Of a stretch of 64,000 nucleotides of DNA, positions 14,869 through 61,845 are shown in pieces. The notes beneath the pieces were generated by a model. That model did not search any database. It was not told the DNA's origin and was given only the letters and a program-made list of their open reading frames with translations. This stretch comes from a virus (Duplodnaviria > Heunggongvirae > Uroviricota > Caudoviricetes), in IMG/VR virus record IMGVR_UViG_3300026549_001031, one strand, 5' to 3'. The first letter of the stretch is position 1; each line of letters starts with the position of its first letter. Both the position numbers and the translations under genes were made by a program.

Positions 14869-14879
14869 GGTGCAGAATA

Positions 14880-16516: not shown

Positions 16517-16541
16517 GAATACATCCGTTCGAGCCTGTATC

Positions 16542-16570: not shown

Positions 16571-16605
16571 TACTATATAGTAATATGAAAAGGAGGTGAC
16601 AAAAG

Positions 16606-34908: not shown

Positions 34909-34918
34909 GGAGAAGAAA

Positions 34919-45041: not shown

Positions 45042-45366
45042 CATGTATTATAGATATGTTGGCAGAAGACTAAATGGAACAGACATTAGATTTAAGGGCA
45101 TATTTGAGATCTTTACACCTGACGAACGAAGAAAGTGGAGCAGTTGTTTGGCTACACCTAAATGGTACAGCGAGCATCCTGGTGTTGAGACTGAGGCGTG
45201 GTTTACTCAACATGGATATGATAAGTGGCATGGCAAAATGGATGCAATAATCAATGATTTCTTAGATGCATACGGTAGAAATAATTATGAGGTACATTTA
45301 TTAAGGGTAGAGACATTAAATAACATCGTGTCTAAAGGAAAGACACAGTGTATTGTGAGAGTGTAA
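45031..45366 (+). CDS. hypothetical protein (111 aa; start 45031 or 45043)
   Basis: ORF overlapping end of upstream gene. Confidence 0.45.
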   Translation: MVNNMYYRYVGRRLNGTDIRFKGIFEIFTPDERRKWSSCLATPKWYSEHPGVETEAWFTQHGYDKWHGKMDAIINDFLDAYGRNNYEVHLLRVETLNNIVSKGKTQCIVRV

Positions 45367-45413
45367 CAGTTAGAAATAGAAGTAGGACAGTTAAAATATC
45401 TGGGGGAGATACA

Positions 45414-46043
45414 TTGAACAGAAAAGTGTTTAACATTAACAACTTAAAGAATTGCATACTTATACAAAGATGGGATGGAGATATAGGCATTATTGACCTT
45501 GAGTATACCATTGGTACAACTGAAGTGATAGACTATGATTTCTATAACATACCTGATGGAAGTAATATAGAGTTCATTGTTGGAGCAGGCAGGACATATG
45601 AGAAAATGAGTGAGGACAGAGCAATGGTATTTAATAAACATAAGCTCAAAGAGGATGATCAATCAATATTTCCGTTATACAATAAGGAATATGACTATGT
45701 TGACATTCATAAAAACAATGATCTTATCTTTTGGGATGGCAAGAACTTAACAGATGTAATGTTAGACGTATGTAATAAAAAGATATCTTATATGTGTACT
45801 AAGGTATGCAGTTTACTGCTAGAGAATAACAGTGGTTATAGGACAGTTGATAGGTTTGATACACTTCTGTCTAGGAGAGATACAGTAGAGTTAATAGATA
45901 AGACAGGATTCATTACAGATCTGACTAGTGAGTATGATATAGCAAACATGCTTAAAGGAGAAGAAATCATGTATTTTAAGCATGGTCCTTTCAACATTGT
46001 GTATCAACCTCGAAAAATAAGTGTAAGGAACATTCCATTTTAA
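45414..46043 (+). CDS. hypothetical protein, paralog family G (TTG start after GGGGGAG RBS)
   Basis: N-terminus (M)NRKVFNINNLKNCILIQRWDGDIGIIDLEY aligns with (M)RKEKFDIDNLRDCIVIHRYDGSIDIIDI of next gene; track start 45348 is GTG inside previous gene. Confidence 0.5.
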   Translation: MNRKVFNINNLKNCILIQRWDGDIGIIDLEYTIGTTEVIDYDFYNIPDGSNIEFIVGAGRTYEKMSEDRAMVFNKHKLKEDDQSIFPLYNKEYDYVDIHKNNDLIFWDGKNLTDVMLDVCNKKISYMCTKVCSLLLENNSGYRTVDRFDTLLSRRDTVELIDKTGFITDLTSEYDIANMLKGEEIMYFKHGPFNIVYQPRKISVRNIPF

Positions 46044-46064
46044 GAATGAAAGGTAGATGGTACA

Positions 46065-46733
46065 GTGAGAAAAGAGAAGTTTGACATTGACAATTTAAGA
46101 GATTGTATAGTAATACATAGATATGATGGGAGCATTGACATTATTGATATAAGACAGGCAAGAGAGAAAGATAGAGTTATTGAGTCTGAATACTATGTCA
46201 TACCTGAAGAAAGCAATATTGGGTTTATTACAGGCATCAATAGAAAATATGTTACAGATAATAGAGAAGCATTAGGGCTTGCACTTGTTTATAATAACAG
46301 TAAGTTTAAGAGATCTAGCATGAATGTTATTGGTTATACAAGATGCTCATTACATTATAGGGACAATAGTGCATATGATAAGTTTATTATATACAATGGG
46401 GATAGCTTAAGAGATGCAGTCAAGGTTAAAATAGACAACACAGATCTTGAGTTTGAGGTAGTTGGTGATTTTGCTATTTGTAAAATGGCTATTTTACCAA
46501 GTATAGCTATTGTACCAAGTATTGATATAAGATATACATATGTTAATAATTTTAGTACACTAGTTTCTAAAGATGATACAATTGAATTGATAGATTCAGC
46601 AGGTAATACTAGAGATTTAACATATGAATGTGATGTACATGCAATGACAAGCGAAGAAGATAAGTACAGAATTATGCTTAATGAACTTGCTATATACATT
46701 GAGAATGAGAATCTATGCATTTCGAGACTATAG
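46065..46733 (+). CDS. hypothetical protein (222 aa), paralog family G (GTG start)
   Basis: Tandem paralog of 45414 gene. Confidence 0.55.
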   Translation: MRKEKFDIDNLRDCIVIHRYDGSIDIIDIRQAREKDRVIESEYYVIPEESNIGFITGINRKYVTDNREALGLALVYNNSKFKRSSMNVIGYTRCSLHYRDNSAYDKFIIYNGDSLRDAVKVKIDNTDLEFEVVGDFAICKMAILPSIAIVPSIDIRYTYVNNFSTLVSKDDTIELIDSAGNTRDLTYECDVHAMTSEEDKYRIMLNELAIYIENENLCISRL

Positions 46734-46747
46734 TATGATACATTGAT

Positions 46748-47026
46748 ATGAGGAGAAAGTTCCTAGAGAAACTAGACAAAGATAGTTTAATTGAGAGGCT
46801 TATGATAGCTGAAGAGTTACTCAACGAGGAAAAAGCAGATGCACGAGAATGGACAGGTTCAGACGGTATGCTAGGAAAAATTAGCAGTATTGTTTATAAC
46901 GAAAACAGCGTTAATTATGATAAGGAACTTGCTGAAAAGTGGACAGACTTAATAAACAAAATTGAAGTCATGTCATTTGGAGCAACTTACAGAATAAATG
47001 AGAGGATACAACACTATGATAAATAG
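46748..47026 (+). CDS. hypothetical protein (92 aa)
   Basis: ORF with ATATGAGGAG RBS. Confidence 0.45.
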   Translation: MRRKFLEKLDKDSLIERLMIAEELLNEEKADAREWTGSDGMLGKISSIVYNENSVNYDKELAEKWTDLINKIEVMSFGATYRINERIQHYDK

Positions 47027-47954
47027 AGAGATACAGAGTTTCTGTGTACAGGGCACTAGAAAATCACATGCAGACTTGAATGGTAATACACATGATATGA
47101 GAGTATTAGAATTTGAGACTAGTCGTGGTTTAAATAATAAAATGCAATACAAAAGTTTAACTACAACTGGTAGAATAGATTTTGTACAGGATGGTTTATG
47201 GGATCAGCGTTACAATGTTATAATAAGAGACAATGACTATGATGACATTAAGCATCCACATTTTGATTCTTTGAAATTAAACCAGATTACATTAACATGC
47301 CCTAATGATACAGATATAAAATTGAATGTACTTTGGAATGACGGAACTAAGGAGGTTATAGACATAGTAGGTGACCTTTTTACACATGTAATGTTAGGAT
47401 TTAATCATTATGCTACAAGAATAGGCTGCTATGAAATTACACTAACACTTACAGATGATTCATTGATCATGTGGCTAACAGACATGTCTAGATTTGACTA
47501 CGTTAAATGGGTAGAAGTTCAGCAGGTCAAGAAAGAGGACAACAGGGTTGTGTTTGACTTTGATGCATATGATAGTAAAGATAAGTTGTCATGTGATAAG
47601 TTTAAGGGCAGTAACTCAAAACTAATGTGCAGTGGTCATATTGTGTTTAATACAGATCATAAAACACTGACAGCAGAGACAAGAGGTTATGATGCATATG
47701 GATTAAGAGAATATGACCTTAATAAAATGAAAGATGAGAGGGTACTGTATATTGAATTGGATGATACCAGTGATACAGAAGTGAAGATCATGGGAGAGTT
47801 GGAGAATGGCAGTATCATAAATATGAATGTACGTGAGGTATTGGACATGTATGCAAGACATGTGATAAATGACAATGAAATAAATTGTGGAGCATTAAAA
47901 GTCATAGTAGATTGGGGTAAAATTGTGATTAAACTTTCACATAACTTGTATTGA
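46998..47954 (+). CDS. hypothetical protein (318 aa)
   Basis: ORF overlapping upstream gene end. Confidence 0.55.
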   Translation: MRGYNTMINREIQSFCVQGTRKSHADLNGNTHDMRVLEFETSRGLNNKMQYKSLTTTGRIDFVQDGLWDQRYNVIIRDNDYDDIKHPHFDSLKLNQITLTCPNDTDIKLNVLWNDGTKEVIDIVGDLFTHVMLGFNHYATRIGCYEITLTLTDDSLIMWLTDMSRFDYVKWVEVQQVKKEDNRVVFDFDAYDSKDKLSCDKFKGSNSKLMCSGHIVFNTDHKTLTAETRGYDAYGLREYDLNKMKDERVLYIELDDTSDTEVKIMGELENGSIINMNVREVLDMYARHVINDNEINCGALKVIVDWGKIVIKLSHNLY

Positions 47955-48015
47955 GGGGGAATGATGCATAGGACTAAACTTGACAGGCACACAATAAAGA
48001 AGATGAGGCAGTGAT

Positions 48016-48270
48016 ATGAATGAGCTAAGAGATTGTGTAGTAGTAGAGTTCACTAATGGTATCAAGTTTTACATTGGGTTTGACAGTAGTAATAAAAAAT
48101 AGAACATTGGGGAATATGACTTATGTGCATATTTAGGTGAAATTGGCATATATAATAAGTTAATGAAGCATCTAAAGGATGAAAATAGTGCATTGGGTAG
48201 TTTATGTGTTCCTGTGGAGAGATACTTGACATATTGGAAGATATATGTATACAGGAAATGTTAGGATATG
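48016..48270 (+). pseudogene. decayed remnant of paralog family G with in-frame TAG at 48100-48102
   Basis: MNELRDCVVVEFTNGIKFYIGFD aligns with NLKNCILIQRWDGDIGIIDLEY / NLRDCIVIHRYDGSIDIIDI; reading frame continues after TAG for 53 more codons. Confidence 0.45.
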
Positions 48271-48462
48271 AACTTATGGATAAAGTAGAGTTCAGTTATG
48301 CAAGTGGAGCTGGCACACTTAGTTTAGCAGTGAAATGTGCAAATGAGAGTGTGCAATAACAGTAAAAACTGCATTTAGATATAATAATTATAATTTAATT
48401 ATTAAAATACAGATCAAAGACAAGCTAAGAAAAGCAATGAGCATATAAAAGGAGAAAAAGAC

Positions 48463-48987
48463 ATGGTAAATGGTTTATTTGTACGTATCAGATCAAAAGA
48501 GACAGAAGAAGTTTTATTAAAGTGTCCCCTGTCTGAAAAGGTTAGCTCAGATGATATAGAGGCAATCAAAACAGAGTGTGAGCAGTGCGGAATCAAGTTA
48601 GTGGACAGTATAGTTCCTGAATCCTCAAGATTAGCTAGTAACTCTACATTTTGGACAGTCTTGTGGGATGATTACAATTATGTAGCATTAGAAGTTGGAA
48701 TATATGACCAGTATTTGTATGATGTTACAGTGGCTTGGGATGAAAGCAGGCATATGGCAGAGGTTGTTTGGACTGATGATAATGGAGAAGAGCAGGTATT
48801 TGATTTAGCATCACAGCGTGAATTAAGTGCAATGCTTGGTCAGGAATCTTGGAATACAGACTTTGGATGTAAACTGACACCTGGTAAATTGGAGGACAAG
48901 CAGGTGTTTAACTTGGATACAAATGAAGTAGAGAATATGGAATACAGTAGTGCAGTGATTACAGTGAGAGAATCAGAGGATAAATAA
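48463..48987 (+). CDS. hypothetical protein (174 aa)
   Basis: AAAAGGAGAAAAAGAC RBS. Confidence 0.55.
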   Translation: MVNGLFVRIRSKETEEVLLKCPLSEKVSSDDIEAIKTECEQCGIKLVDSIVPESSRLASNSTFWTVLWDDYNYVALEVGIYDQYLYDVTVAWDESRHMAEVVWTDDNGEEQVFDLASQRELSAMLGQESWNTDFGCKLTPGKLEDKQVFNLDTNEVENMEYSSAVITVRESEDK

Positions 48988-49024
48988 AAGAGCGTGCAGT
49001 TGGAGCATTGAAAAAATAAATAAG

Positions 49025-49068
49025 CCTGTGTCATAGGAAATAAAACCATGACACTAGGTTTATTTTAG
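49025..49068 (+). terminator. candidate Rho-independent terminator (bulged stem CCTGTGTCATAGG/CCATGACACTAGG + TTTATTTT)
   Basis: Imperfect inverted repeat with 7-bp core GTGTCAT followed by T-rich run. Confidence 0.45.
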
Positions 49069-49096
49069 CACTTGGGTAATTGCAGGAGCATAGGGA

Positions 49097-50248
49097 ATGT
49101 TAGATAGACAGGGTTTAGGTTTGGAGTTAGACAATACTAGTTTATATTTGATCTTTGTAAGAGAGGGCAAATATGCAGTAGTTAATTTAGACAAGACCAT
49201 TGAAAATAGTAAAATTGACATAGCAGGTGATTATTGGACAGTTAATGAGGATGTTAACTTGCATCAACTTGAATATACTGAGGCATTGATTAAAATAACA
49301 ATTAGCAGCTATTTTCAAGACAGACTTGGATGTGCAGTCTCTTTTAATTGTAATACAGGCGAGGAAATAACTGGAGTTACACTTGATAATTTATTTGAGA
49401 GAGTTACAATTAAATCTAGGACAGATACAGATGTGTATTTGGTCAGAGGAAATAAAGAGATATACATTAGTGAACAAGTTGGTTTGGCTTCAGCGCTTGG
49501 ATGTGACGGTACAGAAGTTGGTTTGGACAACCTGATAGATAATGTCAGGGTTTCAGGGTTTATTAGTCCTATGACTAATTCAGATGGGTTTATAGAGGGT
49601 TGTCTTAGCATTAGAGTTGAGATATATAGACAACCATTGGAGGAGGATAACAATACAGAAGTTATTATACTGCGTGACAAAAGAAAAATGGACAGATATG
49701 AGGTAGAGGGGGAGGAGAGCAGCATTGGAGAAAAGAGCATTGGAGAAAAGTATGAGTTGGAAGAGGCATTTAGAATTAACTTAGGCAGACCTCTTAATTT
49801 AAGAGCTGGTACATGTGGATTTCATATAGACAATTCAAAGAATATTAAAATTACAGTGAGTAATAATCATACACCTTTGACAGATAGAGGTAGAAAAAGC
49901 TTCTATAGGGGAAGTTGTAGGATACCTGTAATAACAAGTGAACTCACTAGAGTAGGAGTGTTCATTGGAAGTGACACAGTAAATCTATGGATCAACATAG
50001 ATGACTATGGAAGAGTGCATAGGGCTGATTTATTTTGGACAGATAAGAATGAGGATGTGCAAGTAATAGTTGAGAATAAGGCACTTGGACAAAAAATGGT
50101 TTATCAAATGTTTGATAATGATACATATGAAAATGAACCTGATACAGGGATTGGATGTTGGGTTGTGCATGAGACAATTTCAAAAGATCCTGATGAAATT
50201 TCAGAGTTCATAAGGTTAAATAGTAAAGAAAACGGGTTGAATACATAG
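49097..50248 (+). CDS. hypothetical protein (383 aa), paralog family D
   Basis: Shares LYLIF N-terminal block and GxxxGxxGTEVGLDNLI block with 53441, 54597, 55633 genes. Confidence 0.55.
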   Translation: MLDRQGLGLELDNTSLYLIFVREGKYAVVNLDKTIENSKIDIAGDYWTVNEDVNLHQLEYTEALIKITISSYFQDRLGCAVSFNCNTGEEITGVTLDNLFERVTIKSRTDTDVYLVRGNKEIYISEQVGLASALGCDGTEVGLDNLIDNVRVSGFISPMTNSDGFIEGCLSIRVEIYRQPLEEDNNTEVIILRDKRKMDRYEVEGEESSIGEKSIGEKYELEEAFRINLGRPLNLRAGTCGFHIDNSKNIKITVSNNHTPLTDRGRKSFYRGSCRIPVITSELTRVGVFIGSDTVNLWINIDDYGRVHRADLFWTDKNEDVQVIVENKALGQKMVYQMFDNDTYENEPDTGIGCWVVHETISKDPDEISEFIRLNSKENGLNT

Positions 50249-50299
50249 ACAATGTAGAAAGACATGAAGTAAATAAGAGTTAGGGCAGGGGTTATAAGA

Positions 50300-51499
50300 A
50301 TGGGATCTGGAGTATATCATATCGAGACAATAAAAGTAAAGAGTAGGGCAACAGGAAATGTGGTTGTGCAGTTTAGATTGGATGCTAAATACAAGAAAAC
50401 AATAATAAAGCCATCAGAGATGAAACCACTTATAGGGGCTATGTTGATCAGTAGTAATACAGGGTACAGTTATGATTTTGAGAAATTGGCAAGAAATTAT
50501 AAGTATGTGCCTACTAGAAGTATAAGGGCATACATACCATATGTACATACAGCAGTATACCATACAAGCATTACAAAGAAAGAGATTGATACACCTGATT
50601 TGACAGAGTGTCATGTGATTAGTTTATTGCATGATTTAGGTACAGAGTATTTAGCAGCAGTTGCATTTAATTCACTTGATAACAGGAAATATGAGTACAT
50701 ATACACTGGAGAGAAAGAGATAAACTTATCAGAATTATATGAGAAGCATAGACAAGTTGGAGTAAAAGAGATTGATAGCACTTCAACAAGAAACATATAC
50801 ATGGCAAATGAGATTTTGTTTATGACTTCAAAAAGAATAGACTTCTATGAAATGGGTAAGCTTTATGATGCATCTAGTACATGTAAAATAGATTTGGTTC
50901 CTACAGTATTGAAAATTGAGGAATCAAAAAGAAAAAAGAGAGGAAAGATTAGCATTGAGGAACAGGCAGAGGAAAATAAGAAAGAATACAATGAAAGATT
51001 AGAAAGGGCTAAAAGAAAAGGAAATATATACATTGAAATTAACAATGACATTGACAAAATTTTGATTGATACAGGGGCTGAAAAGATGGAGGACATTGTG
51101 ACAATTCTTCAGAGCAGTAGGTTTAATTACAGATTAACTCATGGAGAATTGGAAACAAATGTTAGCAACATGTCTTTTAGGTTGGAGTACAGAGATCCTA
51201 ATAAAGAGGCTCTAAAAAGTTCAAGAATTGTGGAAGGTAGTGTTGTTGTTGATACCTTAATTCCTAGGGACAGGTTTATTTGTGACATTTATTTTTTACA
51301 TAATCAGTGTAGCATATTCAGGTTCAAAAAGAATGATATATATGTAAAAGTATGTGGAGGGCATGAAGACTATGACCTTAATGAATTAGTTGGCATAGCT
51401 GATATGACAGGCGGCAATAAATTTCTTTATGAAGACTGTGCTATTGGGATAAACAACTTTGTGTTTGTAGGGATTGGCAATGGAATGAAAGAGATTTGA
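50300..51499 (+). CDS. hypothetical protein (399 aa)
   Basis: ORF with GGGCAGGGG RBS-like sequence. Confidence 0.55.
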   Translation: MGSGVYHIETIKVKSRATGNVVVQFRLDAKYKKTIIKPSEMKPLIGAMLISSNTGYSYDFEKLARNYKYVPTRSIRAYIPYVHTAVYHTSITKKEIDTPDLTECHVISLLHDLGTEYLAAVAFNSLDNRKYEYIYTGEKEINLSELYEKHRQVGVKEIDSTSTRNIYMANEILFMTSKRIDFYEMGKLYDASSTCKIDLVPTVLKIEESKRKKRGKISIEEQAEENKKEYNERLERAKRKGNIYIEINNDIDKILIDTGAEKMEDIVTILQSSRFNYRLTHGELETNVSNMSFRLEYRDPNKEALKSSRIVEGSVVVDTLIPRDRFICDIYFLHNQCSIFRFKKNDIYVKVCGGHEDYDLNELVGIADMTGGNKFLYEDCAIGINNFVFVGIGNGMKEI

Positions 51500-51570
51500 C
51501 AAGGAAAAAGAAAAGATGAGCAAAGGATTACAGGTAACGGACAATGGCAGAATAATGGGATGTACATTGG

Positions 51571-52071
51571 ATGAATTTGAGAAAGTCATTAAAAAAAGAA
51601 AGAGTTACGAGCGATGGTTTATTGCTGAACATCAATAATGAGTTTAGGGCATATATTCCTTTGAACTTGGGGCTTGTACATGGAAAGTTAAACATGTATA
51701 CAACAGAGATTGGACATAAATCTAGTATGGGGTTTAATTATATTGAAGATGATGGGCATATAAAAGTAAATTTGGTCTATAGGACATGGCTAATTGGCAT
51801 GTGTGAGTATAAGCAAGGAGTAAAAAATAAATGGGTATTACATAAGATAATTTTAATACCAGGTAGTATAATATCAGAGTTTGATGCTGATTACATAACA
51901 ATTGATGAAAAGATCAGTTTATCTGATGTGTTGGATGAGTCAAGGATGTTTGGGATATTAACATGGTACAATGTCAAAGAGATTAATGGCATGTGGTTAA
52001 GTTTGGATGGAGGTAATATGTTTTTAAGTGATCATATGTACAATCCTAAGGACTTAAAGGTTTATGGATAG
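51571..52071 (+). CDS. hypothetical protein (166 aa), paralog family E; start uncertain (overlaps 40-codon ORF 51516-51638 with A7 tract)
   Basis: C-terminal block MFGILTWYNVKEINGMWLSLDGG aligns with NMLGISSWNNIEEIDNLWLSISAG and NMLGIKVWHNMNKIDNMFVSIVNKG. Confidence 0.5.
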   Translation: MNLRKSLKKERVTSDGLLLNINNEFRAYIPLNLGLVHGKLNMYTTEIGHKSSMGFNYIEDDGHIKVNLVYRTWLIGMCEYKQGVKNKWVLHKIILIPGSIISEFDADYITIDEKISLSDVLDESRMFGILTWYNVKEINGMWLSLDGGNMFLSDHMYNPKDLKVYG

Positions 52072-52244
52072 AACATAAGAAAATAGGAAAATGGACAAGG
52101 AGTAATGGGAAGTAGATCATGGGAAGTGATTTAGATAGCATAGTCTTAAGAGGGGATCAAGCAGCTAAGACAGTTATAAAAGACCTTGATACAATTAAAG
52201 AATGAAATAAACATGTTGAAATTGAAAGCAAACATAAGGGTTGC

Positions 52245-52712
52245 TTGATATTCACACTGAAGGATTGTAAGATACTTTTCTCATTATGTGTTTATTACAG
52301 TGATAATACACCAGAGACACATTTATACGTGTATAAGCATAATGGAAAAGCAAAGGTGTCCACAGAAACAGGAAAGATGCTTGGGAGAATAATAGACACA
52401 GCAGTAATGTTTAATGATGAGACAGCTATACACTTGAGATTTGAGCTTAAGGATGACAATTGGTCAGCTACAGATATTGAGTGAGATGCTGGGGTATTGA
52501 GTGGTACTACAGAACTTACACATGTACATGGGGATGTGCATAAAAACTTATTAGAAAACATTGATATGATCAATATGCTTGGGATATCAAGTTGGAACAA
52601 CATAGAGGAAATAGATAACTTGTGGTTGAGTATAAGTGCAGGTAAATTTGTTTATTTAACAAGTAAGCAAGCAGTACCTATCAATTATAAGGAATATACA
52701 GTGACAGATTGA
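52245..52712 (+). pseudogene. paralog family E gene with in-frame TGA at 52482-52484 (nonsense mutation or readthrough/recoding)
   Basis: Track ORFs 52245-52484 and 52497-52712 are in the same frame separated only by TGA; fused length 151 aa matches paralogs (152-166 aa); TGA aligns with Cys (TGT/TGC) of 52932 paralog. Confidence 0.5.
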
Positions 52713-52931
52713 GGGTTAGACATAACAAATGGGAGCATGACATTGGATAGTATAACATATGAATTGATAAAGCAGAGATTAAGAAAAGCAATGAGTAAAT
52801 CAACATCTATGAAAGATAATAAATGCATGGGTAATGGTAAAGATACAGCAGTCTATCAGCTCTGCAAAATTGATAACCTGGTTGATTTGAATAAATAAAT
52901 AGAAATTGAGAAGCAACATGACGGTTGTTTA

Positions 52932-53420
52932 TTGATGCAATGGGAAGAACACACAATGATGCTTTCATTTTGGATACCTGACTGTAATGATAGGAAAGAC
53001 ATCATTACAATTTATATGGTGGACAATGTACAAATCTGGGACCTGGAAGATCCAGTCATAGAAGTTCAAAAGACAAACTGGGATTCAATTAGTGTTGGTA
53101 TATATTATTATGGATATGACATTGTACTTGTAGACTTTATATGGGATACAGATAAAAAGAAATGGACAGTGGCAAATTGTGATTGTGGCATGGTAGAGGT
53201 ATCTAGACATACAGAAGTTACATATATAACAAAGAATGGACAGTGGAAATTATCAGAAAACATTGATTTAGCTAATATGCTTGGTATTAAGGTTTGGCAT
53301 AATATGAATAAGATAGATAATATGTTTGTTAGCATAGTAAATAAAGGAATATCATTAAGTATTCAGAAGAAAGCACCTGATGAATTGAGAGTATTTGAAA
53401 CAGACGGAGAAAAGCAGTAA
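52932..53420 (+). CDS. hypothetical protein (162 aa), paralog family E
   Basis: Conserved 5' leader GAAATTGAGAAGCAACATGACGGTTG shared with 52245 gene leader. Confidence 0.5.
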   Translation: MMQWEEHTMMLSFWIPDCNDRKDIITIYMVDNVQIWDLEDPVIEVQKTNWDSISVGIYYYGYDIVLVDFIWDTDKKKWTVANCDCGMVEVSRHTEVTYITKNGQWKLSENIDLANMLGIKVWHNMNKIDNMFVSIVNKGISLSIQKKAPDELRVFETDGEKQ

Positions 53421-53440
53421 AAGAAAGGACAGGCAGTAGA

Positions 53441-54547
53441 ATGAAAGTTTCAGACTTTGGAATTTATGGAATTGACAATGGAGATGCATACTTATTATTT
53501 AAGAGAATAGGATCAAACAATCTTGACTGGTCGTGGTTTAATTTAGATGATACAGTTAAAAATGAAGTGAATGGAGCACAGGTTTATGGTAAACAGCTTA
53601 GACTACAGGAGGATGCTATTGTAGATACCTTATATGGTAGTAGGTGTGGTAAGCTGGATCGTAACTTTACACTTGGCATAACTGAATATAGTGAATGTCA
53701 GTTCAATAAAAAAACACATACAGCAAATGAAATTGGTGCATATAATATAACAATTAGGAGCATTGATGGAAATATAGACTCTGTTAAAATGAAATACAAT
53801 ATACAAACATATGAGTCATATCTAGTAAAGGGAGATACAGTAATAGATATTAACAAGTGTGCAGGAGTTAGACAACTTGCAGGGTTTTGTGGAGAGTTAG
53901 GGCTCGAGAGTTTAATACAGAACATACAAATTATATTGGATACAGCTGAAAGAAAAGATGGTTACATTGGAATTTCAATATATAAAGCAGTATTTGATTG
54001 GGATAGCAGTACATATTTACAAATGGTAGCACACAGTATGGGAAAACAAACAGTGTTTGACCTGGGATACACAAATGAGGGCATAAGTAGTAATAAATAT
54101 GACTTGTATTCTTTGAGGCACATGAATGTAGATTTGGATAGACCTGGAGTTAAGAGCTTTTCTTACATTAGATGTAGTAGCTTAACTACTAAAGAAGAGG
54201 ATAGTATTATGGAATATGACATGTGGTTACCTGATAGATTGTATGTGATGGCATTGTTAGACGGAGAAAAACGCTTAAGTAAAATGAATGTCATTGGTAA
54301 AGATACTCGTACAGATAAAATTGAATTTATACTTAGGAAAACAGAGGATGGCAACACAGTAGATAAATCAGTGTTACTTATTGATAATGAAGGATGCGTT
54401 AAAGATGGTAAGAATAAGTTTTCAAAAGAAGTACTTGGGCATTGGGTATTAGAATATAGTCCTAGTGTAAAGGGAAGATGGGCAATAGGTATAAATCATT
54501 TGAGCAATACTGGAAAGATGCCTTCATTTGCATTTCTTGGTATATAA
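53441..54547 (+). CDS. hypothetical protein (368 aa), paralog family D
   Basis: AAGGACAGGCAGTAGA RBS; GVRQLAGFCGELGLESLIQN block. Confidence 0.55.
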   Translation: MKVSDFGIYGIDNGDAYLLFKRIGSNNLDWSWFNLDDTVKNEVNGAQVYGKQLRLQEDAIVDTLYGSRCGKLDRNFTLGITEYSECQFNKKTHTANEIGAYNITIRSIDGNIDSVKMKYNIQTYESYLVKGDTVIDINKCAGVRQLAGFCGELGLESLIQNIQIILDTAERKDGYIGISIYKAVFDWDSSTYLQMVAHSMGKQTVFDLGYTNEGISSNKYDLYSLRHMNVDLDRPGVKSFSYIRCSSLTTKEEDSIMEYDMWLPDRLYVMALLDGEKRLSKMNVIGKDTRTDKIEFILRKTEDGNTVDKSVLLIDNEGCVKDGKNKFSKEVLGHWVLEYSPSVKGRWAIGINHLSNTGKMPSFAFLGI

Positions 54548-54596
54548 AAGTCAGACAGAAAAAAATTGTAGTCAAAAGTTGGACAGGTGGTTAAAA

Positions 54597-55628
54597 ATGA
54601 ATGGCTGTAAATTTGATAAAAGATACAGTAAAGGCTTATGGTTAATCTTTAGAGAAAAGAGTGGTAGGACTTGGCATAAAATAAAGTTTGGCAAGGGGTT
54701 TAATGCAAAAGACAGTGGACTCAATAAATATGCATATGGTAAAAGGGAAAGGTCTTATTTTCCTAGGTCATTAGCATTACTTGGCAACAGGTTTGACATA
54801 TACGACTTCTTGTTACATGAGGGTACTTATGAATGGAATAGTTCTACATTAACAATTAGAACAATAGATAGTGTAATAGACAATGTAGTTTTTGAATTTG
54901 ACAAAGACTTATTTGAGGCATACTTAATAAATGAGGGGTACATCATTGATGTTTATAAGGAGATAGGAGTAACAAATGCATGTGGCAGTAATGGTACAGA
55001 AATAGGTTTGAACAAGGTGGTACCCGGAGTTGAAATTGAGTACTCATATAAATGGAAAGGGATGATCCGTCTAAGAATAATAAAAGAGCATATCAAGTAT
55101 GACTATAATGAGGAACTTGAATGCAAGGTTACAGTTAATGGTACAGTGGAGTTTGACTACAATATCAGTAGTCCACTATTTGATGGACCTAAGGGGTTGG
55201 ATATGAGGAACAATATTAAGGACAAGCATCTGGATATAAGAGACTACTATCACTATAGAATTAGGAGTGGATACAGGCTAGGAAAAACAATAGCATTTGA
55301 GAGTTACTTATCACTCTACGAAAATCTGGGTGTATACACACTTGAAATTGAGAATGACATGAAACTATGTGCTATAGAAATTAACCCTACAGTTAGATGT
55401 TTAGCTGGCAGTGATGCAACTATAGAGTTGACACGATTGAAAAATGGGAAAGAGATTGATAAGCTAGAGTTATTATACACTAAAGATACAGATGATAACA
55501 TATATAAATGGTTTGGACAGTGGATGATATGGAAAGAGGGCAGTATACTTAATATAAGACATAGTTCATGTCTTGGAGAGTTTGTAGTTTGCAGACTTGG
55601 TAGTGAAGAAGATGGCATAGTGATATAG
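54597..55628 (+). CDS. hypothetical protein (about 343 aa), paralog family D
   Basis: ATG 54597 after GGACAGGTGG gives N-terminus MNGCKFDKRYSKGLWLIF aligning with paralog N-termini; track start 54528 overlaps upstream gene. Confidence 0.55.
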   Translation: MNGCKFDKRYSKGLWLIFREKSGRTWHKIKFGKGFNAKDSGLNKYAYGKRERSYFPRSLALLGNRFDIYDFLLHEGTYEWNSSTLTIRTIDSVIDNVVFEFDKDLFEAYLINEGYIIDVYKEIGVTNACGSNGTEIGLNKVVPGVEIEYSYKWKGMIRLRIIKEHIKYDYNEELECKVTVNGTVEFDYNISSPLFDGPKGLDMRNNIKDKHLDIRDYYHYRIRSGYRLGKTIAFESYLSLYENLGVYTLEIENDMKLCAIEINPTVRCLAGSDATIELTRLKNGKEIDKLELLYTKDTDDNIYKWFGQWMIWKEGSILNIRHSSCLGEFVVCRLGSEEDGIVI

Positions 55629-55632
55629 GAGA

Positions 55633-56787
55633 ATGTACATGATATCTGAAAGAAAACACTTCTTAGAAAAAGTTAATATCATGGAGAAGTTAGGATTAGG
55701 CAAGGATGGTTTATATCTTGTACTTAGGGGAAAGTTAACAGGCTGTGTTGGAAAATGGTCCTGGTTAAGATTAGATACATGTTTAAGTAATAATGACATT
55801 GACAAGTTGAATGGAGGTGCATGGCATGCAAGTGTAGAGGCAACGGAACAAAGAAGAGAGCATACAGAACAAACACGTAATACATATAAAGGAAGAAGTA
55901 TGTTATATGAACCTTGGTGTGTTGAGCATTTCAGTTTTGCAGAATCACTTGATAATTATGGAAGTCACTTAACAGTAAGAGCATTTGATAATAAAGTTGA
56001 CAAAGTTAAATTTGAGTATGTGTCTGATAATTATGATATGTACATTGTGAGTGGGAATAGTGGCAGTGTAATTGACATAAATAAAGAGGCGGAAGCATTA
56101 TACTTAAGCGGTTTTGACAATGGAGAATTAGGACTTGATAGTTTAATTCCTGGTATCAGCATAGAGTTTGTAAGAGTTCATAGATACAAAGTTCATGGGC
56201 ATAAAAAGTATATTATTTATATTAAGTTCATAAGTTTTAAGGAAGATAGACATGAAAGATTGGGTATTAACTTTTTGTTTGATGGCACAAGCAGGTTGAG
56301 AATTAAGAGTGTTGATGACATTAAATCTCAAGACTCCTTAAATTGGTATATTGATGATGGAATTGAGGATAGAGGTTATACTTATAGAGCTGGCAGACCT
56401 GGTGCACCTTTTAATAGACATTGTTATAAATTAGCTGATATACATAAGAGTTATAATAGATATGGTTTAATTGTAGGTCATCAGACATCTATAGATTTTG
56501 TAGTAGAAAATGATTATAGCACTAAGCTCATTGATATTTCCTTGTGTCCTAAGATAATTGATGTTGGGAAGGATATAGACATTATAATCACAAGGGAATA
56601 CAACGGAGAAGTGATTGATACCATTAAAATAAATAACAGTCACCCTGAAGTATTAAGGGATAAGCAGAGCAGTTTTATATTTGGCAATTGGATTTTTATA
56701 AGTGACGTCTCTGATAGTGTGGTAGGTTTATGTAGATATAAATTGATGCATAAACAAGGAACAGCAGAATTTATACATGAAATATGA
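55633..56787 (+). CDS. hypothetical protein (384 aa), paralog family D (alternative start ATG 55680)
   Basis: TAGGAG RBS before 55633; EKLGLGKDGLYLVLRGK aligns with RQGLGLELDNTSLYLIFVREGK of 49097 gene. Confidence 0.55.
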   Translation: MYMISERKHFLEKVNIMEKLGLGKDGLYLVLRGKLTGCVGKWSWLRLDTCLSNNDIDKLNGGAWHASVEATEQRREHTEQTRNTYKGRSMLYEPWCVEHFSFAESLDNYGSHLTVRAFDNKVDKVKFEYVSDNYDMYIVSGNSGSVIDINKEAEALYLSGFDNGELGLDSLIPGISIEFVRVHRYKVHGHKKYIIYIKFISFKEDRHERLGINFLFDGTSRLRIKSVDDIKSQDSLNWYIDDGIEDRGYTYRAGRPGAPFNRHCYKLADIHKSYNRYGLIVGHQTSIDFVVENDYSTKLIDISLCPKIIDVGKDIDIIITREYNGEVIDTIKINNSHPEVLRDKQSSFIFGNWIFISDVSDSVVGLCRYKLMHKQGTAEFIHEI

Positions 56788-56839
56788 AGCATAAAAGAAA
56801 TACTTTGGAAACAGTCGAGAAACAGTTGGGGAATGAAGT

Positions 56840-57319
56840 ATGGACATAAATAAAAAATTGTACAACTTTGATAAAAGTAAACTAATCAATGAAGATTTGT
56901 ATCTAATCATTGAAAAAGAGGATAAAGACACTGGAGAATCAAGATGGGCATGGATAGATATAGATAAACCATGTAATGATGAAAGAAGTAAAATTGTGGT
57001 TTATGGGGATGCATGGGAGGATAGTGGAATTACATGTAATGCATATACAATATGGCAACAGCTTTATATAGGAGAATTTGAGGACTATTTTGATACTCTT
57101 ATAACAGTAGATAAAGAGACAGGGTTCTGTATTAGTATAAGGATTGTACATAATGAAAATAAAGTTGATCAGGTAGGTATAAAAATCAGCACTAAAAAGT
57201 CAGATGGCTTAGCAATTTATTTATATCATTTGGGAAAGATAATAAACATGACAGAAGAAACTAAGATATGCTATCTTAGTGGGGGGAGTTTAGCAATGAA
57301 ATTGGGTTTGGAGACTTAA
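56840..57319 (+). CDS. hypothetical protein (159 aa)
   Basis: ORF with GTTGGGGAATGAAGT RBS-like sequence. Confidence 0.5.
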   Translation: MDINKKLYNFDKSKLINEDLYLIIEKEDKDTGESRWAWIDIDKPCNDERSKIVVYGDAWEDSGITCNAYTIWQQLYIGEFEDYFDTLITVDKETGFCISIRIVHNENKVDQVGIKISTKKSDGLAIYLYHLGKIINMTEETKICYLSGGSLAMKLGLET

Positions 57320-57357
57320 TAAATAATGTAAGAGTTAGCTTTGCAATAAGTGGTAAG

Positions 57358-57909
57358 GTGACAGAGTTTAGAATCAACAGGGTAATAAATAACTGGGACT
57401 ATAGACACAAGACATGGTTCAGTGTAGAGGCAAGTAATGATACAGCATTTGAGATAGATGCAAAAGCAGCAATAGATGTTAAAACTAGCATAGGAAATAA
57501 AAAGAAACTTGACATTGTAGATTATATTGGTAGACCTAATTATTCATATTATAGGAGCACTTTTAGAGATCCTAGCATTTACAAAGAACCAACAGAACTT
57601 CGTCTAAAGTTGGGTAAGAAAGTGTTTTTGAAAATGGTGCACGATGAATATGGAGGTATAATCAGTATGGTGGTTAAAGCACATCACCTTAAACCTGGAG
57701 ACTTCAAAATGAAAATAACTTGCATTGATGAGACAGAAACTACAAAGGAAAATGAGGGCGGAAAGAGAGAGATATATGAAATAGACAATGTAAATAAGAA
57801 AGATACAGAAGTGGCAGAGGTTGGCAATTGGTTAATTAGCTATGACATTCAAAAAGAAGTAGTCAACATACATGTTTTTAATAAAGACTACACTTGCATG
57901 ACAGTGTGA
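57358..57909 (+). CDS. hypothetical protein (183 aa; GTG start, weakly supported)
   Basis: ORF; start codon choice uncertain. Confidence 0.4.
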   Translation: MTEFRINRVINNWDYRHKTWFSVEASNDTAFEIDAKAAIDVKTSIGNKKKLDIVDYIGRPNYSYYRSTFRDPSIYKEPTELRLKLGKKVFLKMVHDEYGGIISMVVKAHHLKPGDFKMKITCIDETETTKENEGGKREIYEIDNVNKKDTEVAEVGNWLISYDIQKEVVNIHVFNKDYTCMTV

Positions 57910-57959
57910 TATAATAGATAAAGATAAAAAGTAGTTAGAAGGATAAGGGCATATAAATT

Positions 57960-58418
57960 ATGAAGAAAGCAGTATTAAAAATTGAAAAAGATGGAGTAAA
58001 AATATTTGAGGCATCCTTATCAAATGGTATAGGATTGATTTATCAGGACAGTGAAGTTGCTATTTATGATCAGAGACTAAATATTGAGTACTATACTCAT
58101 TTGATCAGTTACAAGGATAAATTAGTTGCAATGATTATCAGTAGTGACAATGATGTTGCAGAAGTAAACCTGTTCATTAAAGATGGATCATTGAAAGCTT
58201 GGTTCACTACAGATGCTGGGGATGGAGATATCATTGATGCTGGTTTAGTGCAGAATATGTTAGGAACTAAGTTCAAGGGATTTGGAGAATTATATGATAT
58301 AATTACACAGGAGTATGAGGATATGACATTGATAACAATGTATACTAACATGTCACCTGATGGTAAATCATATAAACCCAATACAAAGCATTTGGAGTGG
58401 GCATACACACAGGCATAG
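57960..58418 (+). CDS. hypothetical protein (152 aa), paralog family F
   Basis: KIFEASLSNGIGLIY block shared with 58437 gene. Confidence 0.55.
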   Translation: MKKAVLKIEKDGVKIFEASLSNGIGLIYQDSEVAIYDQRLNIEYYTHLISYKDKLVAMIISSDNDVAEVNLFIKDGSLKAWFTTDAGDGDIIDAGLVQNMLGTKFKGFGELYDIITQEYEDMTLITMYTNMSPDGKSYKPNTKHLEWAYTQA

Positions 58419-58436
58419 TGAAAGAGGTAGCATAGA

Positions 58437-58895
58437 ATGATAAGTAAGTTACTTTTGCAATTAACATATGACAAAGAAAAGATATTTGAGGCATCTGTAT
58501 CAAGTGGGCTTGGACTAATTTATACAGGAGAGGACATTGAATATAAGGAATTTACATTTGGTCCTGATTACATAGCAGTTGTAGTTTATAGAAAAGATAA
58601 AGTGATTGCACTGTTTGAATTAGATTGTAACATAGTGAAATCAATTCATACATTCAGCAAGGATAATAATTTAGATGCATATGTCATTACAAAAAATTGT
58701 AAGGAAAGTGTGGATGCTGCAGTTACACTAGGTGTAATGCTTGAGCAAAATGTATGCACAGTGGCTAATAAGTTCAATGTACATTGTAAAGTATTGGATG
58801 GCATTCAAGTCACAAGTATGTACATTGACTTACAAGATTATATCAGAGATAAAAATACAGCACTACGTTATAGTTGGGTATTAAATAAAGTTTAA
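58437..58895 (+). CDS. hypothetical protein (152 aa), paralog family F
   Basis: Tandem paralog (KIFEASVSSGLGLIY). Confidence 0.55.
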   Translation: MISKLLLQLTYDKEKIFEASVSSGLGLIYTGEDIEYKEFTFGPDYIAVVVYRKDKVIALFELDCNIVKSIHTFSKDNNLDAYVITKNCKESVDAAVTLGVMLEQNVCTVANKFNVHCKVLDGIQVTSMYIDLQDYIRDKNTALRYSWVLNKV

Positions 58896-58906
58896 CCGCA
58901 TGGGTA

Positions 58907-58935
58907 TTGATTTTTATGGAAATAAGTGGTATAAT
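58907..58935 (+). promoter_or_regulatory. sigma-A promoter TTGATT-N17-TGgTATAAT (near-identical copy at 63333-63361)
   Basis: TTGATTTTTATGGAAATAAGTGGTATAAT; followed by GTTGGAGGTAAG RBS and ATG 58967. Confidence 0.6.
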
Positions 58936-58966
58936 TTAATTATTAAGAGTTGGAGGTAAGAGATAG

Positions 58967-59845
58967 ATGAAAGCATCAAATAAAATTTTAGGAGCAGTAT
59001 TAGCATTAGCTATGACAGTAGGAACAGTAAGTGGAGCACCTGTTGCAGGTGATGTACTTGGAGCAGAAACAGTGCAGGCAGCTACAAGAACAAAGAGTGT
59101 TACAATTAGTAACGTTAAGAATGGAAAAGCTACCTTATATACAGGGCAGAGTTTATCATTTAAGACGAACTATAAAGAAAATCAGTTGAAAGTGTCTACA
59201 TCAGATAAAAGCGTGGTCAGCGTAAAAGGTATTAAGATCACAGGAGTAAATAAAGGAACTGCAAAGATTACAGTGGCTGTTAAAAGCAATACAAAAGTAA
59301 AAAAGACTATTACAGTAAAAGTTGTGGATAGGTATATTATCAGAAAGAGTTGTGAAGGTGGTAATGCAGTTACAGAAAAGTATGACAGAAAGACAAAGAA
59401 GAGCACATATACAGTTGCTATGACAGGTACAGATGAGTTAAATAAAGCAGATATCAGTGTAAAGTTTAAGTTTACATCTAAGGCTACAAATCTGACAGGT
59501 ACAAGATATGCAGGAGAATTAAATAATGGTGAAGGTTGTGGTCTTAGACTATACAACATGACAAAAGATGACTCATACAAACAGATTATTGATTTTAACA
59601 AGAAATCAGATAAAGAGCTTTACAAATATTATGAGCTGACAAAGGCAGAAATCAAGCAGACAAAGTTTACACGTAATAATACAGATGCAGGGTATGTGAT
59701 GGCATCTGTTGTTCCACATGGCAAAAACGGACTTATTAAGGAATGTTTAATCAAAGACAAGGAAACAGGAACATTATATAAATTAGAGTATCGGGGTAGC
59801 GAAGATCCGTATGCAGTATATAAGAGTGTAAAAGTCATAAAGTAA
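58967..59845 (+). CDS. secreted protein with signal peptide and bacterial Ig-like (Big_2) domain
   Basis: Signal peptide MKASNKILGAVLALAMTVGTVSGAPVAG; Big_2-like SVTISNVKNGKATLYTGQSLSF...KVSTSDKSVVSVKGIKITGVNKGTAKITVAVK. Confidence 0.7.
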   Translation: MKASNKILGAVLALAMTVGTVSGAPVAGDVLGAETVQAATRTKSVTISNVKNGKATLYTGQSLSFKTNYKENQLKVSTSDKSVVSVKGIKITGVNKGTAKITVAVKSNTKVKKTITVKVVDRYIIRKSCEGGNAVTEKYDRKTKKSTYTVAMTGTDELNKADISVKFKFTSKATNLTGTRYAGELNNGEGCGLRLYNMTKDDSYKQIIDFNKKSDKELYKYYELTKAEIKQTKFTRNNTDAGYVMASVVPHGKNGLIKECLIKDKETGTLYKLEYRGSEDPYAVYKSVKVIK

Positions 59846-59875
59846 CAAGCATAAATAACTAAAGATTTAGTTGTT

Positions 59876-59915
59876 AACAGAGGACTCAGGTGTTTGGACA
59901 CTTGGGTCCTTTTTG
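59876..59915 (+). terminator. candidate Rho-independent terminator (GGACTCAGGTGT...ACACTTGGGTCC stem + TTTTTGTG)
   Basis: 12-bp stem with G-U/mismatch positions followed by T-run, 30 nt after stop of 58967 gene. Confidence 0.5.
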
Positions 59916-59991
59916 TGTACATAAATTTCTACATGAATTTAATTAAAATTGAAATTTTATATTTTTAATAATTTATAAGAGGTAATAGAAG

Positions 59992-61736: not shown

Positions 61737-61845
61737 ACAAAGTGTTTATAAGTAGGACATGTCATATAAAAGGCATGTCCTATTTTTATGCATAGAAGTA
61801 TAAAAAGAGAATTTTTATTTTTAATTAAAGTTGGGAGGAATAAGC

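What the first reader, a model, noticed from the sequence alone, without database searches (positions are those of the whole stretch)
45414..58895. Hot-spot of tandem paralog families with decaying copies (families D, E, F, G)
At least four unrelated families are each present as 2-4 adjacent copies, sharing N-terminal and internal blocks.
- Family G: 45414, 46065 and the remnant at 48016.
- Family D (about 345-385 aa): 49097, 53441, 54597, 55633.
- Family E (about 150-165 aa): 51571, 52245, 52932, with a conserved 5' leader GAAATTGA.A.GCAA.CAT.A.GGTTG.
- Family F (152 aa): 57960, 58437.
Two copies carry in-frame stops (TAG 48100, TGA 52482). This birth-and-death pattern is typical of arms-race cargo (anti-defence, host-range or immunity-like genes). 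None has a recognisable motif.
Basis: seen in the sequence. Interest (0 to 1): 0.6.

Follow-up and report, generated by a model that had tools for sequence, protein, structure and literature searches.

The report
Tandem orphan gene families, some copies decaying
This stretch of an uncharacterised half-megabase mobile genome from ruminant guts carries several adjacent families of duplicated genes found nowhere else, and related strains have lost or broken different copies. This pattern is familiar from large viruses, and here the function remains unknown.

Summary
Leave-one-out profile tests confirm families D, E, F and G as tandem paralogs (E 2e-19 to 3e-27).

Corrections:
- There is a fifth D copy (56840-57909), split by a +2 slip in a G6 run.
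- Gene 55633 is a D4::D5 chimera left by deletion of one copy.
- E2 has two TGG>TGA changes. E3 has a TAA that removes its N-terminus.
- The "5' leader" is former coding sequence.
- The 48016 remnant belongs to a separate 195-aa gene, not demonstrably to family G.

Five related haplotypes from independent metagenomes show strain-specific loss, cassette replacement and copy-number change. However, the duplications are old (22-33% identity). Intact copies are under purifying selection (dN/dS about 0.1-0.5), with no diversifying signal.

The families exist only in this clade of 0.41-0.55 Mb contigs. They have no Pfam, PHROG, PADLOC, PDB or fold match.

Best reading: a variable multigene-family region of individually dispensable, soluble, acidic accessory proteins. 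It works like the multigene families of large DNA viruses. A counter-defence role is inference only. The phenomenon is ordinary and the proteins are novel. Interest is modest.

The parts
45414..46043 (+). G1, 209 aa, intact
   Evidence: 31% identical to G2 over 201 aa, E 4e-24. G1 profile hits G2 at 3e-27. The start at 45414 matches the 209-aa orthologs in L001, L006 and L017.
46065..46733 (+). G2, 222 aa, intact
   Evidence: The ortholog is divergent and shortened in L006 (57%) and absent in L016.
46998..47954 (+). H, 318 aa, single-copy orphan gene inside the array
   Evidence: No family hit. Intact in four haplotypes and fragmented over three frames in L016.
48016..48359 (+). G3 pseudogene remnant, with TAG at 48100, a deletion of about 226 bp near 48214-48222 that shifts the frame, and an 18-bp deletion
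   Evidence: Three-way alignment. L006, L016 and L017 have an intact 195-aa gene. L001 has lost its ATG and has the same TAG. The window has the further deletions. Not significantly related to G1/G2.
48463..48987 (+). I, 174 aa, pI 4.2, single copy, intact in all haplotypes
49097..50248 (+). D1, 383 aa, intact
   Evidence: A profile of D2-D6 hits D1 at 2e-19. Eleven orthologs at 72-100% identity.
50300..51499 (+). J, 399 aa, single copy, intact in all haplotypes
51571..52071 (+). E1, 166 aa, intact
   Evidence: E2+E3 profile hits E1 at 3e-10. Absent from L001-L005, where the E cassette is replaced.
52119..52712 (+). E2 pseudogene. Full-length 594-nt frame with two in-frame TGA codons (52203, 52482) and no indel
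   Evidence: Both TGA codons align to TGG (Trp) in the intact 197-aa orthologs of L016 and L017. 95-96% nt identity to those orthologs. Identical in L007 and L008.
52737..53420 (+). E3, interrupted by TAA at 52896. Leaves a 53-aa N-terminal ORF (52737-52898) plus a 162-aa remainder (52932-53420)
   Evidence: L006, L016 and L017 have one 226-227-aa gene. The window TAA aligns to CAG in L006.
53441..54547 (+). D2, 368 aa, intact
54597..55628 (+). D3, 343 aa, intact
   Evidence: The start at 54597 matches the 343-aa orthologs.
55633..56787 (+). D4::D5 chimera, 384 aa. The first ~29 residues come from D4 and the rest from D5. One 1.15-kb unit is deleted
   Evidence: blastn breakpoints. The crossover lies in the GLYLV-coding microhomology. 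The same chimera is in L017. D4 is present in L001, L006 and L016.
56840..57909 (+). D6, split into 159-aa and 183-aa ORFs by a +2 insertion in the G6 run at 57281-57286
   Evidence: The orthologs are single 355-362-aa genes. The G6 run is one of only two G/C runs of 6 nt or more in the window.
57960..58418 (+). F1, 152 aa, intact and the most constrained gene here (dN/dS about 0.1)
58437..58895 (+). F2, 152 aa, intact
45031..45411 (+). Strain-variable insertion carrying a 111-aa gene
   Evidence: Present in the window, L016 and L017. Absent from L001 and L006.
58896..61738 (+). Strain-variable 2.8-kb segment with a 292-aa signal-peptide protein and a 508-aa Cys-repeat protein
   Evidence: Absent from L001. 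Its first gene (the 292-aa protein) is also present in L006 and L017, whose fetched loci end within or just after it.
44097..45041 (+). Eco57I-like methylase paralog starting at the NPPY motif, on the upstream flank of the arrays
   Evidence: PF07669, E 4e-7. Paralogs at 14865, 18885, 61831 and 62748.
61831..63185 (+). Eco57I-like N6 methylase on the downstream flank, split at the G7 tract 62684-62690
   Evidence: PF07669 and PF02384. The tract is G9, G10 or G11 in L001-L004, and only G11 gives one 447-aa ORF.

Best explanation
**What it is**
The region is a variable multigene-family segment of an uncharacterised mobile genome of about 0.5 Mb from ruminant-gut metagenomes. The genome is probably a huge phage or a megaplasmid.

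**Shown**
- Four lineage-restricted families lie head to tail on one strand with short Shine-Dalgarno-bearing spacers: D (six ancestral copies), E (three), F (two) and G (two). Single-copy orphan genes H, G3, I and J lie among them.
- The proteins are soluble, acidic and, in the D5 and F1 models, beta-rich.
- The duplications are ancient. Each paralog has one-to-one orthologs in relatives.
- Intact copies are under purifying selection.
- Individual copies are dispensable, and lineages lose different ones by four routes:
  - G:C>A:T nonsense transitions at Trp or Gln codons.
  - Slippage in a G run.
  - Deletion of a whole unit by recombination between conserved motifs of neighbouring paralogs, leaving a chimera.
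  - Replacement of a whole cassette.
- Uneven dS between adjacent genes shows that homologous recombination reshuffles alleles among co-circulating strains.

**Inferred**
The proteins are partly redundant intracellular accessory factors that act on host components (counter-defence or host takeover). The set a strain keeps would then tune it to its current hosts.

**Confidence split**
About 0.9 for the architecture and evolutionary mode. About 0.3 for the functional inference.
For: **Paralogy and restriction to this clade**
- Paralogy and family limits.
- D family: 17 proteins among 5.8e9 sequences and 10 representatives among 1.84e9, all orthologs of D1-D6.

**Variation between haplotypes**
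- Haplotype comparison and lesions.
- The lesions are identical in independent runs.

**Selection**
- dN/dS is 0.1-0.5, like the flanks.
- Window-vs-L001 dS ranges from 0.04 to 0.67 between adjacent genes.

**Coding and protein properties**
- Standard genetic code.
- No N-terminal signal-like or transmembrane segment; the only hydrophobic stretch flagged is internal to G2. SD motifs lie upstream of the genes.
- Proteins in the region are more acidic than the rest of the window: median pI 5.14 vs 6.33, p = 0.004.

**Context**
- Methylase paralogs flank the region.
- Tandem families continue upstream (41398/42735) and downstream (four paralogs of about 460 aa in L001).
- Relatives sit on contigs of 410-550 kb.
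Against: **Function**
- The structure models are weak: pLDDT 58.8 for D5, and 69.6 for F1 in only one of five models.

**Selection**
- No signal of diversifying selection. This is not what a fast arms race predicts.

**Element type**
- The element is not classified. There were no PHROG hits for 20 proteins and no capsid, terminase or conjugation gene in the window. It was not found in IMG/VR, INPHARED or GTDB genomes.
- Whether the region is expressed early, or at all, is unknown.
Confidence: 0.55

Rival explanations
1. The families are virion-associated paralogs. They could be packaged internal-head or ejection proteins, as in phiKZ-like jumbo phages, or alternative receptor-binding or tail proteins. 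Copy loss would then change particle content or host range.
For: Tandem paralog arrays of head proteins are established for giant phages (own knowledge, not tested here). D paralogs share a better conserved N-terminal half and a more divergent C-terminal half. The D5 and F1 models are beta-rich.
Against: No PHROG structural hit. No fold match to tail or capsid proteins in BFVD or PDB. No structural or morphogenesis gene was recognised in the 64-kb window. Between strains, the C-terminal halves are as constrained as the N-terminal halves.
Confidence: 0.15
2. The arrays are orphan immunity genes against polymorphic toxins, as in acquired interbacterial defence clusters. The element carries them for the benefit of its host.
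Confidence: 0.08
3. The copies are functionless duplicated DNA that is drifting towards loss. The region is simply tolerant of junk.
For: Several copies are broken or deleted in every lineage examined. There is no detectable function.
Against: dN/dS is 0.1-0.5 over dS 0.1-0.6 for all intact copies. Eight genes are intact in all five haplotypes despite up to 28% protein divergence. Reading frames of 150-385 codons have been kept since duplications old enough to reach 22-33% identity.
Confidence: 0.07
4. Some apparently broken copies are still expressed. Routes would be UGA read-through as Trp in E2, -1 slippage at the G6 run in D6, or reversible on/off switching of homopolymer tracts. These copies would be regulated rather than dead.
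For: Both E2 stops are TGG>TGA at Trp codons in an otherwise intact 594-nt frame. The only two G/C runs of 6 nt or more in the window sit exactly at the two frameshift sites. The methylase tract varies between G7 and G11 among close relatives.
Against: TGA terminates 12 genes in the window, and making TGA a sense codon gains no more ORF coverage than the TAA control. No suppressor tRNA is present. G3 carries deletions, and the E3 and G3 stops are TAA and TAG. TGG>TGA is also one of the commonest nonsense transitions. The D6 orthologs have no long G tract.
Confidence: 0.1
5. The stops and frameshifts are sequencing or assembly errors.
For: Homopolymer G runs are error-prone on some platforms (own knowledge).
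Against: The same lesions occur in contigs from separate runs, SRR8442993 and SRR7971122. The G3 TAG is shared with the more distant L001 lineage. The D4::D5 chimera is shared with L017.
Confidence: 0.02

Closest known systems
Multigene families (MGF 100/110/300/360/505) in the variable regions of African swine fever virus, and terminal host-range gene families or 'genomic accordions' of poxviruses (own knowledge)
   Same: Several unrelated families each form adjacent same-strand copies. Strains differ by deletion, truncation and chimeric fusion between neighbouring paralogs. Members are individually dispensable. The paralogs are old and divergent.
   Different: This element uses bacterial-type translation signals and is not a eukaryotic virus. 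There is no sequence or fold relationship. No link to host range or immune evasion has been shown. No recent amplification was seen.
Hyperplastic or plastic regions of T4-like and other large phages, filled with small orphan genes that vary between relatives (own knowledge)
   Same: Co-oriented orphan genes between conserved blocks. Cassette replacement between close relatives, here the E cassette versus a PQ-loop gene. Mosaic divergence.
   Different: Here the genes are organised as multi-copy families with proteins up to 385 aa. The element has not been shown to be a phage. No promoter or stem-loop shuffling cassettes were found beyond chance.
Paralogous inner-body and ejection protein arrays of phiKZ-like and SPN3US-like jumbo phages (own knowledge)
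   Same: Tandem arrays of divergent paralogs restricted to one phage lineage.
   Different: No structural-protein homology. Virion association is untested. No protease or capsid genes were recognised nearby.
Anti-defence gene clusters of phages and plasmids (own knowledge)
   Same: Small acidic proteins clustered next to DNA methylase genes. Content varies between strains.
   Different: No member matches a known anti-defence or defence family. The adjacent methylase copies are truncated or frameshifted.
Lak megaphages (PMC8346664)
   Same: Gut-associated genomes of about 0.5 Mb that have also been detected in rumen.
   Different: Lak genomes have 26-31% GC and use an alternative code. This window has 34% GC and uses the standard code, with TAG terminating 23 genes. 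No sequence match was found in the phage collection.

Membership tests
Any curated protein family (Pfam-A, PHROGs, PADLOC) | Profile match above the family threshold for members of D, E, F, G, H, I or J | tested here: not met
   Zero significant hits; the best E-values are 0.002-0.09 and lie far below the cut-offs.
Tandem paralog (multigene) families | Adjacent genes significantly similar to each other and not to other genes | tested here: met
   Leave-one-out profile E-values of 2e-19 (D), 3e-10 (E), 9e-11 (F) and 3e-27 (G), with no decoy hits. Between families, hhalign E is 0.007 or worse.
Tandem paralog (multigene) families | Copy number and integrity vary between related genomes | tested here: met
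   Five haplotypes were compared: D4 is deleted in two, the E cassette is replaced in one, and G1, G2, G3, H, E2, E3 and D6 are each broken or lost in some.
Arms-race (diversifying) gene families | dN/dS above 1 gene-wide or in defined segments, or recent lineage-specific duplications | tested here: not met
   dN/dS is 0.1-0.5, and 7 of about 250 30-codon windows exceed 1. Paralogs are 22-33% identical, and every homolog is an ortholog of a fixed paralog. Only five haplotypes and a counting method were used, so site-level selection is not excluded.
Polymorphic-toxin immunity proteins | Recognised immunity domain or fold, and a cognate toxin gene or toxin remnants nearby | tested here: not met
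Known anti-defence proteins | Homology to a characterised anti-restriction, anti-CRISPR or similar protein, or demonstrated inhibition of a defence system | tested here: inconclusive
   No homology. Acidity and the methylase neighbourhood are only suggestive. Inhibition cannot be tested with these tools.
Stop-codon-recoded phage genes | One stop codon is absent as a terminator, and ORFs lengthen markedly when it is read as sense | tested here: not met
   Terminators are TAA 42, TAG 23 and TGA 12. Coverage rises by 3% or less for any recoding, no more than in the TAA control. No tRNA gene is present.
Lak megaphage | TAG-recoded genome, 26-31% GC, sequence similarity to Lak genomes | tested here: not met
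Bacteriophage (any) | Hallmark genes such as major capsid, portal or terminase | tested here: inconclusive
   None were recognised in this 64-kb window or its 10-kb flanks. About 85% of the roughly 0.5-Mb genome could not be fetched.
Virion inner-body or ejection paralogs of jumbo phages | Presence in purified virions and processing by the prohead protease | not testable with these tools
   Needs virion proteomics.

The most novel reading that the evidence does not exclude
Families D, E, F and G (with H, G3, I and J) may be a previously unseen repertoire of host-manipulating or counter-defence proteins with new folds. A new clade of half-megabase ruminant-gut elements, absent from phage, plasmid and genome catalogues, would carry them. 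The particular set of intact copies, together with a poly-G-switched methylase next to them, would set which host strains each variant can exploit.
Probability: 0.15. Interest if true: 0.6.

Novelty: new member of a known kind. Interest (0 to 1): 0.35.

Why it matters
If the inference holds, this locus would be a compact natural experiment. Eight genes are always kept, and about ten are kept or lost depending on the strain, in an abundant but unclassified 0.5-Mb element of the rumen. That contrast points to which orphan proteins are core and which are conditionally useful. It also gives concrete candidates for screens for anti-defence or host-takeover activity.

As it stands, the finding mainly documents a familiar genome architecture with new, functionless-by-annotation protein families. 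The more unusual object is the host element itself. It has 88% coding density, all window genes on one strand, fewer than 10% of proteins with any domain hit, and no match in IMG/VR, INPHARED, PLSDB or GTDB genomes.

Tried and rejected
1. **One superfamily?** A recurring 'D-h-x(6)-MLG' strand-helix motif seemed to link G, G3, H, I, E, F and D.
   - hhalign gives no significant pair.
   - A D-motif HMM hits no other family.
   - A leave-one-family-out motif HMM ranks the left-out families 1st-5th of about 95 ORFs, but mostly at E 0.01-1.
   - I chose the segments by eye, so this is suggestive only, and I rejected it as evidence.
2. **Concatenated query.** A 1,954-aa concatenation of G, H, I, J, E and F was used to collect homologs in one search. 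The second structure therefore had only two sequences.
3. **AFDB Foldseek.** This library was not available.
4. **Public collections.**
   - Phage and plasmid collections: no DNA or protein match for the region.
   - IMG/VR, JGI metagenome and GTDB genome scans: no relatives, apart from generic FtsH hits.
5. **Stop-codon recoding.** Rejected.
6. **Regulatory signals.** Promoter-like and terminator-like sites in the region are no more frequent than in shuffles. There are no Rfam hits.
7. **PDB sequence searches.** Searches with four large neighbouring proteins, aimed at classifying the element, found nothing.
8. **Literature.** Searches did not identify the element.

Full report
**Context**

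The window has 34% GC and a strong positive GC skew. It has 88% coding density, and every credible gene lies on the + strand. It contains no tRNA and no Rfam family.

Domain hits were found for only about a dozen of the roughly 50 window proteins scanned against Pfam:
- an FtsH-like protease, a DnaJ-domain protein, an HD protein and an SPFH/Band-7 protein;
- an IS200/IS605 pair;
- five Eco57I-like methylase fragments.

Twenty proteins scanned against PHROGs gave nothing useful. The exact proteins of the window lie on a 496,540-bp metagenomic contig, and relatives lie on contigs of 410-550 kb. At least some of these samples are rumen metagenomes.

The element has no match in the phage or plasmid collections, IMG/VR, or GTDB species genomes. 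It uses Shine-Dalgarno sites and the standard genetic code. TAA, TAG and TGA terminate 42, 23 and 12 genes, and treating any stop as sense adds no more ORF coverage than a control. It is therefore not a Lak-type recoded megaphage, which has 26-31% GC and an alternative code (PMC8346664). Whether it is a huge phage or a megaplasmid remains open.

Yes. BLASTP all-vs-all recovers the four families at the stated coordinates. Leave-one-out profile searches were scored as if against a million sequences, with reversed decoys. They give D2-6->D1 2e-19, E2,3->E1 3e-10, F2->F1 9e-11 and G1->G2 3e-27, with no decoy hit. Profile-profile comparison finds no significant link between families, so 'unrelated families' stands.

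**Corrections and additions**

- *D6.* There is a further D copy, 56840-57319 plus 57358-57909. It is one gene split by a 2-nt insertion that makes a G6 run at 57281-57286. Its orthologs are single genes of 355-362 aa.
- *D4::D5 chimera.* Gene 55633 is a chimera. Relatives L001, L006 and L016 have an extra 378-382-aa copy (D4) between D3 and D5. In the window, and in L017, the first ~29 codons of D4 are joined to D5 within the conserved GLYLV-coding stretch. This removes exactly one 1.15-kb unit.
- *E2.* It spans 52119-52712. It is the same length as the intact 197-aa orthologs and 95-96% identical to them. It carries exactly two TGG>TGA changes, at 52203 and 52482.
- *E3.* The ancestral gene is 226-227 aa and starts at 52737.
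- *The '5' leader'.* It is this lost N-terminal coding sequence. The pattern as written matches nowhere.
- *The 48016 remnant.* It descends from a separate 195-aa gene (G3). The alignment shows progressive decay:
  - G3 is intact in L006, L016 and L017.
  - L001 has lost the ATG and carries the TAG.
  - The window carries the same TAG plus a deletion of about 226 bp and an 18-bp deletion.
  - A G1+G2 profile does not detect G3.
- *Not artefacts.* All lesions are identical in contigs from two other sequencing runs.

**Comparative picture**

Five haplotypes were compared: the window (= L007/L008), L001-L005, L006, L016 and L017. They are collinear at 72-99% identity but differ by indels.

| Feature | State across haplotypes |
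|---|---|
| I, D1, J, D2, D3, D5, F1, F2 | Intact everywhere |
| L006 | All members intact |
| L016 | G1 frameshifted, H fragmented, no G2 |
| L001-L005 | Whole E cassette replaced by a 146-aa PQ-loop membrane protein |
| 111-aa gene (45031) | Present in some haplotypes, absent in others |
| 2.8-kb segment (58896-61738) | Present in some haplotypes, absent in others |
| 413-aa gene near 41188 | Present in some haplotypes, absent in others |

The pair 41398/42735 lies upstream. At least four paralogs of about 460 aa follow just past the window end in L001.

**Evolutionary mode**

- Paralogs are 22-33% identical. Orthologs are 72-98% identical and one-to-one.
- Every D homolog in 5.8 billion proteins, or 1.84 billion representatives, is an ortholog of D1-D6. 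The duplications therefore predate the known clade, and no recent birth is seen.
- Nei-Gojobori dN/dS between orthologs is 0.1-0.5, like the flanking genes. It is uniform along the genes, and only 7 of about 250 30-codon windows exceed 1.
- The broken D6 C-terminal half shows a higher ratio (0.78 against L001), as does G2 against its divergent L006 ortholog (0.82).
- dS between the window and L001 swings from 0.04 to 0.67 between neighbouring genes. This indicates a recombination mosaic.
- All four nonsense codons arise by G:C>A:T transitions at Trp or Gln codons.

**What the proteins are**

- They have no signal peptide and no N-terminal membrane segment.
- They are more acidic than the rest of the window (median pI 5.14 vs 6.33, p = 0.004).
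- A few low-scoring D5 hits are toxin-immunity proteins (RhsI1, TsiN, YdcD). At this confidence that is a lead, not evidence.
- A weak 'MLG' motif recurs across families, but it fails significance tests.

**Interpretation**

The shown part is an old, lineage-restricted set of tandem families. Purifying selection maintains them, but members are individually dispensable. They are eroded by point mutation, slippage, inter-paralog recombination and cassette replacement.

This is how multigene families behave in the variable regions of large DNA viruses and in the plastic regions of large phages (own knowledge). The step from there to 'counter-defence or host-takeover factors' is inference. It rests on dispensability, acidity, cytoplasmic location and the flanking methylase paralogs. 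The lack of diversifying selection weakens it.

The rivals are listed with the results that would refute each: virion paralogs, orphan immunity genes, junk DNA, regulated read-through or phase switching, and artefact.

**Verdict**

The architecture is a new member of a known kind. The proteins are new and of unknown function. Interest is modest, at 0.35. The unclassified 0.5-Mb host element and the poly-G methylase tract are arguably more interesting than the arrays themselves.

Noticed in passing
window 61831-63185 (tract at 62684-62690); L001 15394, L002 15394, L003 9952, L004 7853: An Eco57I-like N6-adenine methylase is split at a poly-G tract. The tract is G7 in the window, G9 in L001 and L003, G10 in L002, and G11 in L004, where alone it forms one 447-aa ORF. 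This looks like a phase-variable (contingency) methylase. G/C runs of 6 nt or more are otherwise avoided in the window: 2 observed against 7.7 expected.
   Followed up: partly
window 59992-61518: A 508-aa ORF has 97 cysteines. An acidic N-terminal ~110 aa is followed by about 95 repeats of a four-residue C-x-x-x unit (CKGS, CKGD, CNTS, CTGS and similar; 12-nt DNA period). It has no Pfam hit and local GC of 41%. It lies in a 2.8-kb segment that L001 lacks.
   Followed up: partly
whole window; contigs behind L001, L017, P0007, P0014: The host genome is an unclassified element of about 0.41-0.55 Mb from ruminant-gut metagenomes. All window genes lie on one strand, coding density is 88%, and few proteins have any domain hit. 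No match was found in the searches made of INPHARED, PLSDB, IMG/VR and GTDB species genomes.
   Followed up: partly
L001 16118-21143 (continues from about window 63400 onward): A further tandem family of at least four paralogs of 459-486 aa (28-35% identity, E down to 1e-69) lies immediately downstream of the window.
   Followed up: partly
window 41398-42720 and 42735-44060; 34441-34908 and 34898-35344: Two more adjacent paralog pairs lie upstream of the reported region (E 1e-20 and 4e-5).
   Followed up: no
window 14865-15761, 18885-19781, 44097-45041, 61831-62721, 62748-63185: A dispersed family of Eco57I-like methylase genes or fragments. Of the three copies that begin at or near the NPPY motif, 44097 shows no match to the AdoMet-binding N6_Mtase domain that 61831 carries; 14865 and 18885 align to it from their first residues.
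   Followed up: partly
window 16103-17343: An IS200/IS605-type element with a Y1 transposase (E 5e-33) and a short OrfB/TnpB-like ORF. It coincides with a block of higher GC and low GC skew.
   Followed up: partly
L001 7300-7740 versus window 51509-53372: In the L001-L005 lineage a 146-aa PQ-loop (SemiSWEET-like) membrane protein gene occupies the slot that holds the three E genes in the other lineages.
   Followed up: partly
window 41188/41189; L006 1137-2378; L017 674-1915: L006 and L017 carry a 413-aa gene here that the window lacks. This shows that indel variation extends upstream of the reported interval.
   Followed up: no
window 48389-48405 and 58930-58946: An exact 17-mer, TATAATTTAATTATTAA, occurs twice, in the intergenic regions upstream of genes 48463 and 58967. 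It is promoter-like but has not been tested.
   Followed up: partly
window 3871-4095: A 74-aa ORF repeatedly scores best (E 3e-4 to 3e-3) against the hand-built 'MLG' motif model derived from the array families.
   Followed up: no
window 6575-11394 and 31571-32476: A cluster of proteostasis-type genes: an HD-domain protein, FtsH-like AAA protease, DnaJ-domain protein, and further on an SPFH/Band-7 (HflC-like) protein. FtsH homologs also occur in jumbo phages such as PA5oct (about 31% identity).
   Followed up: partly
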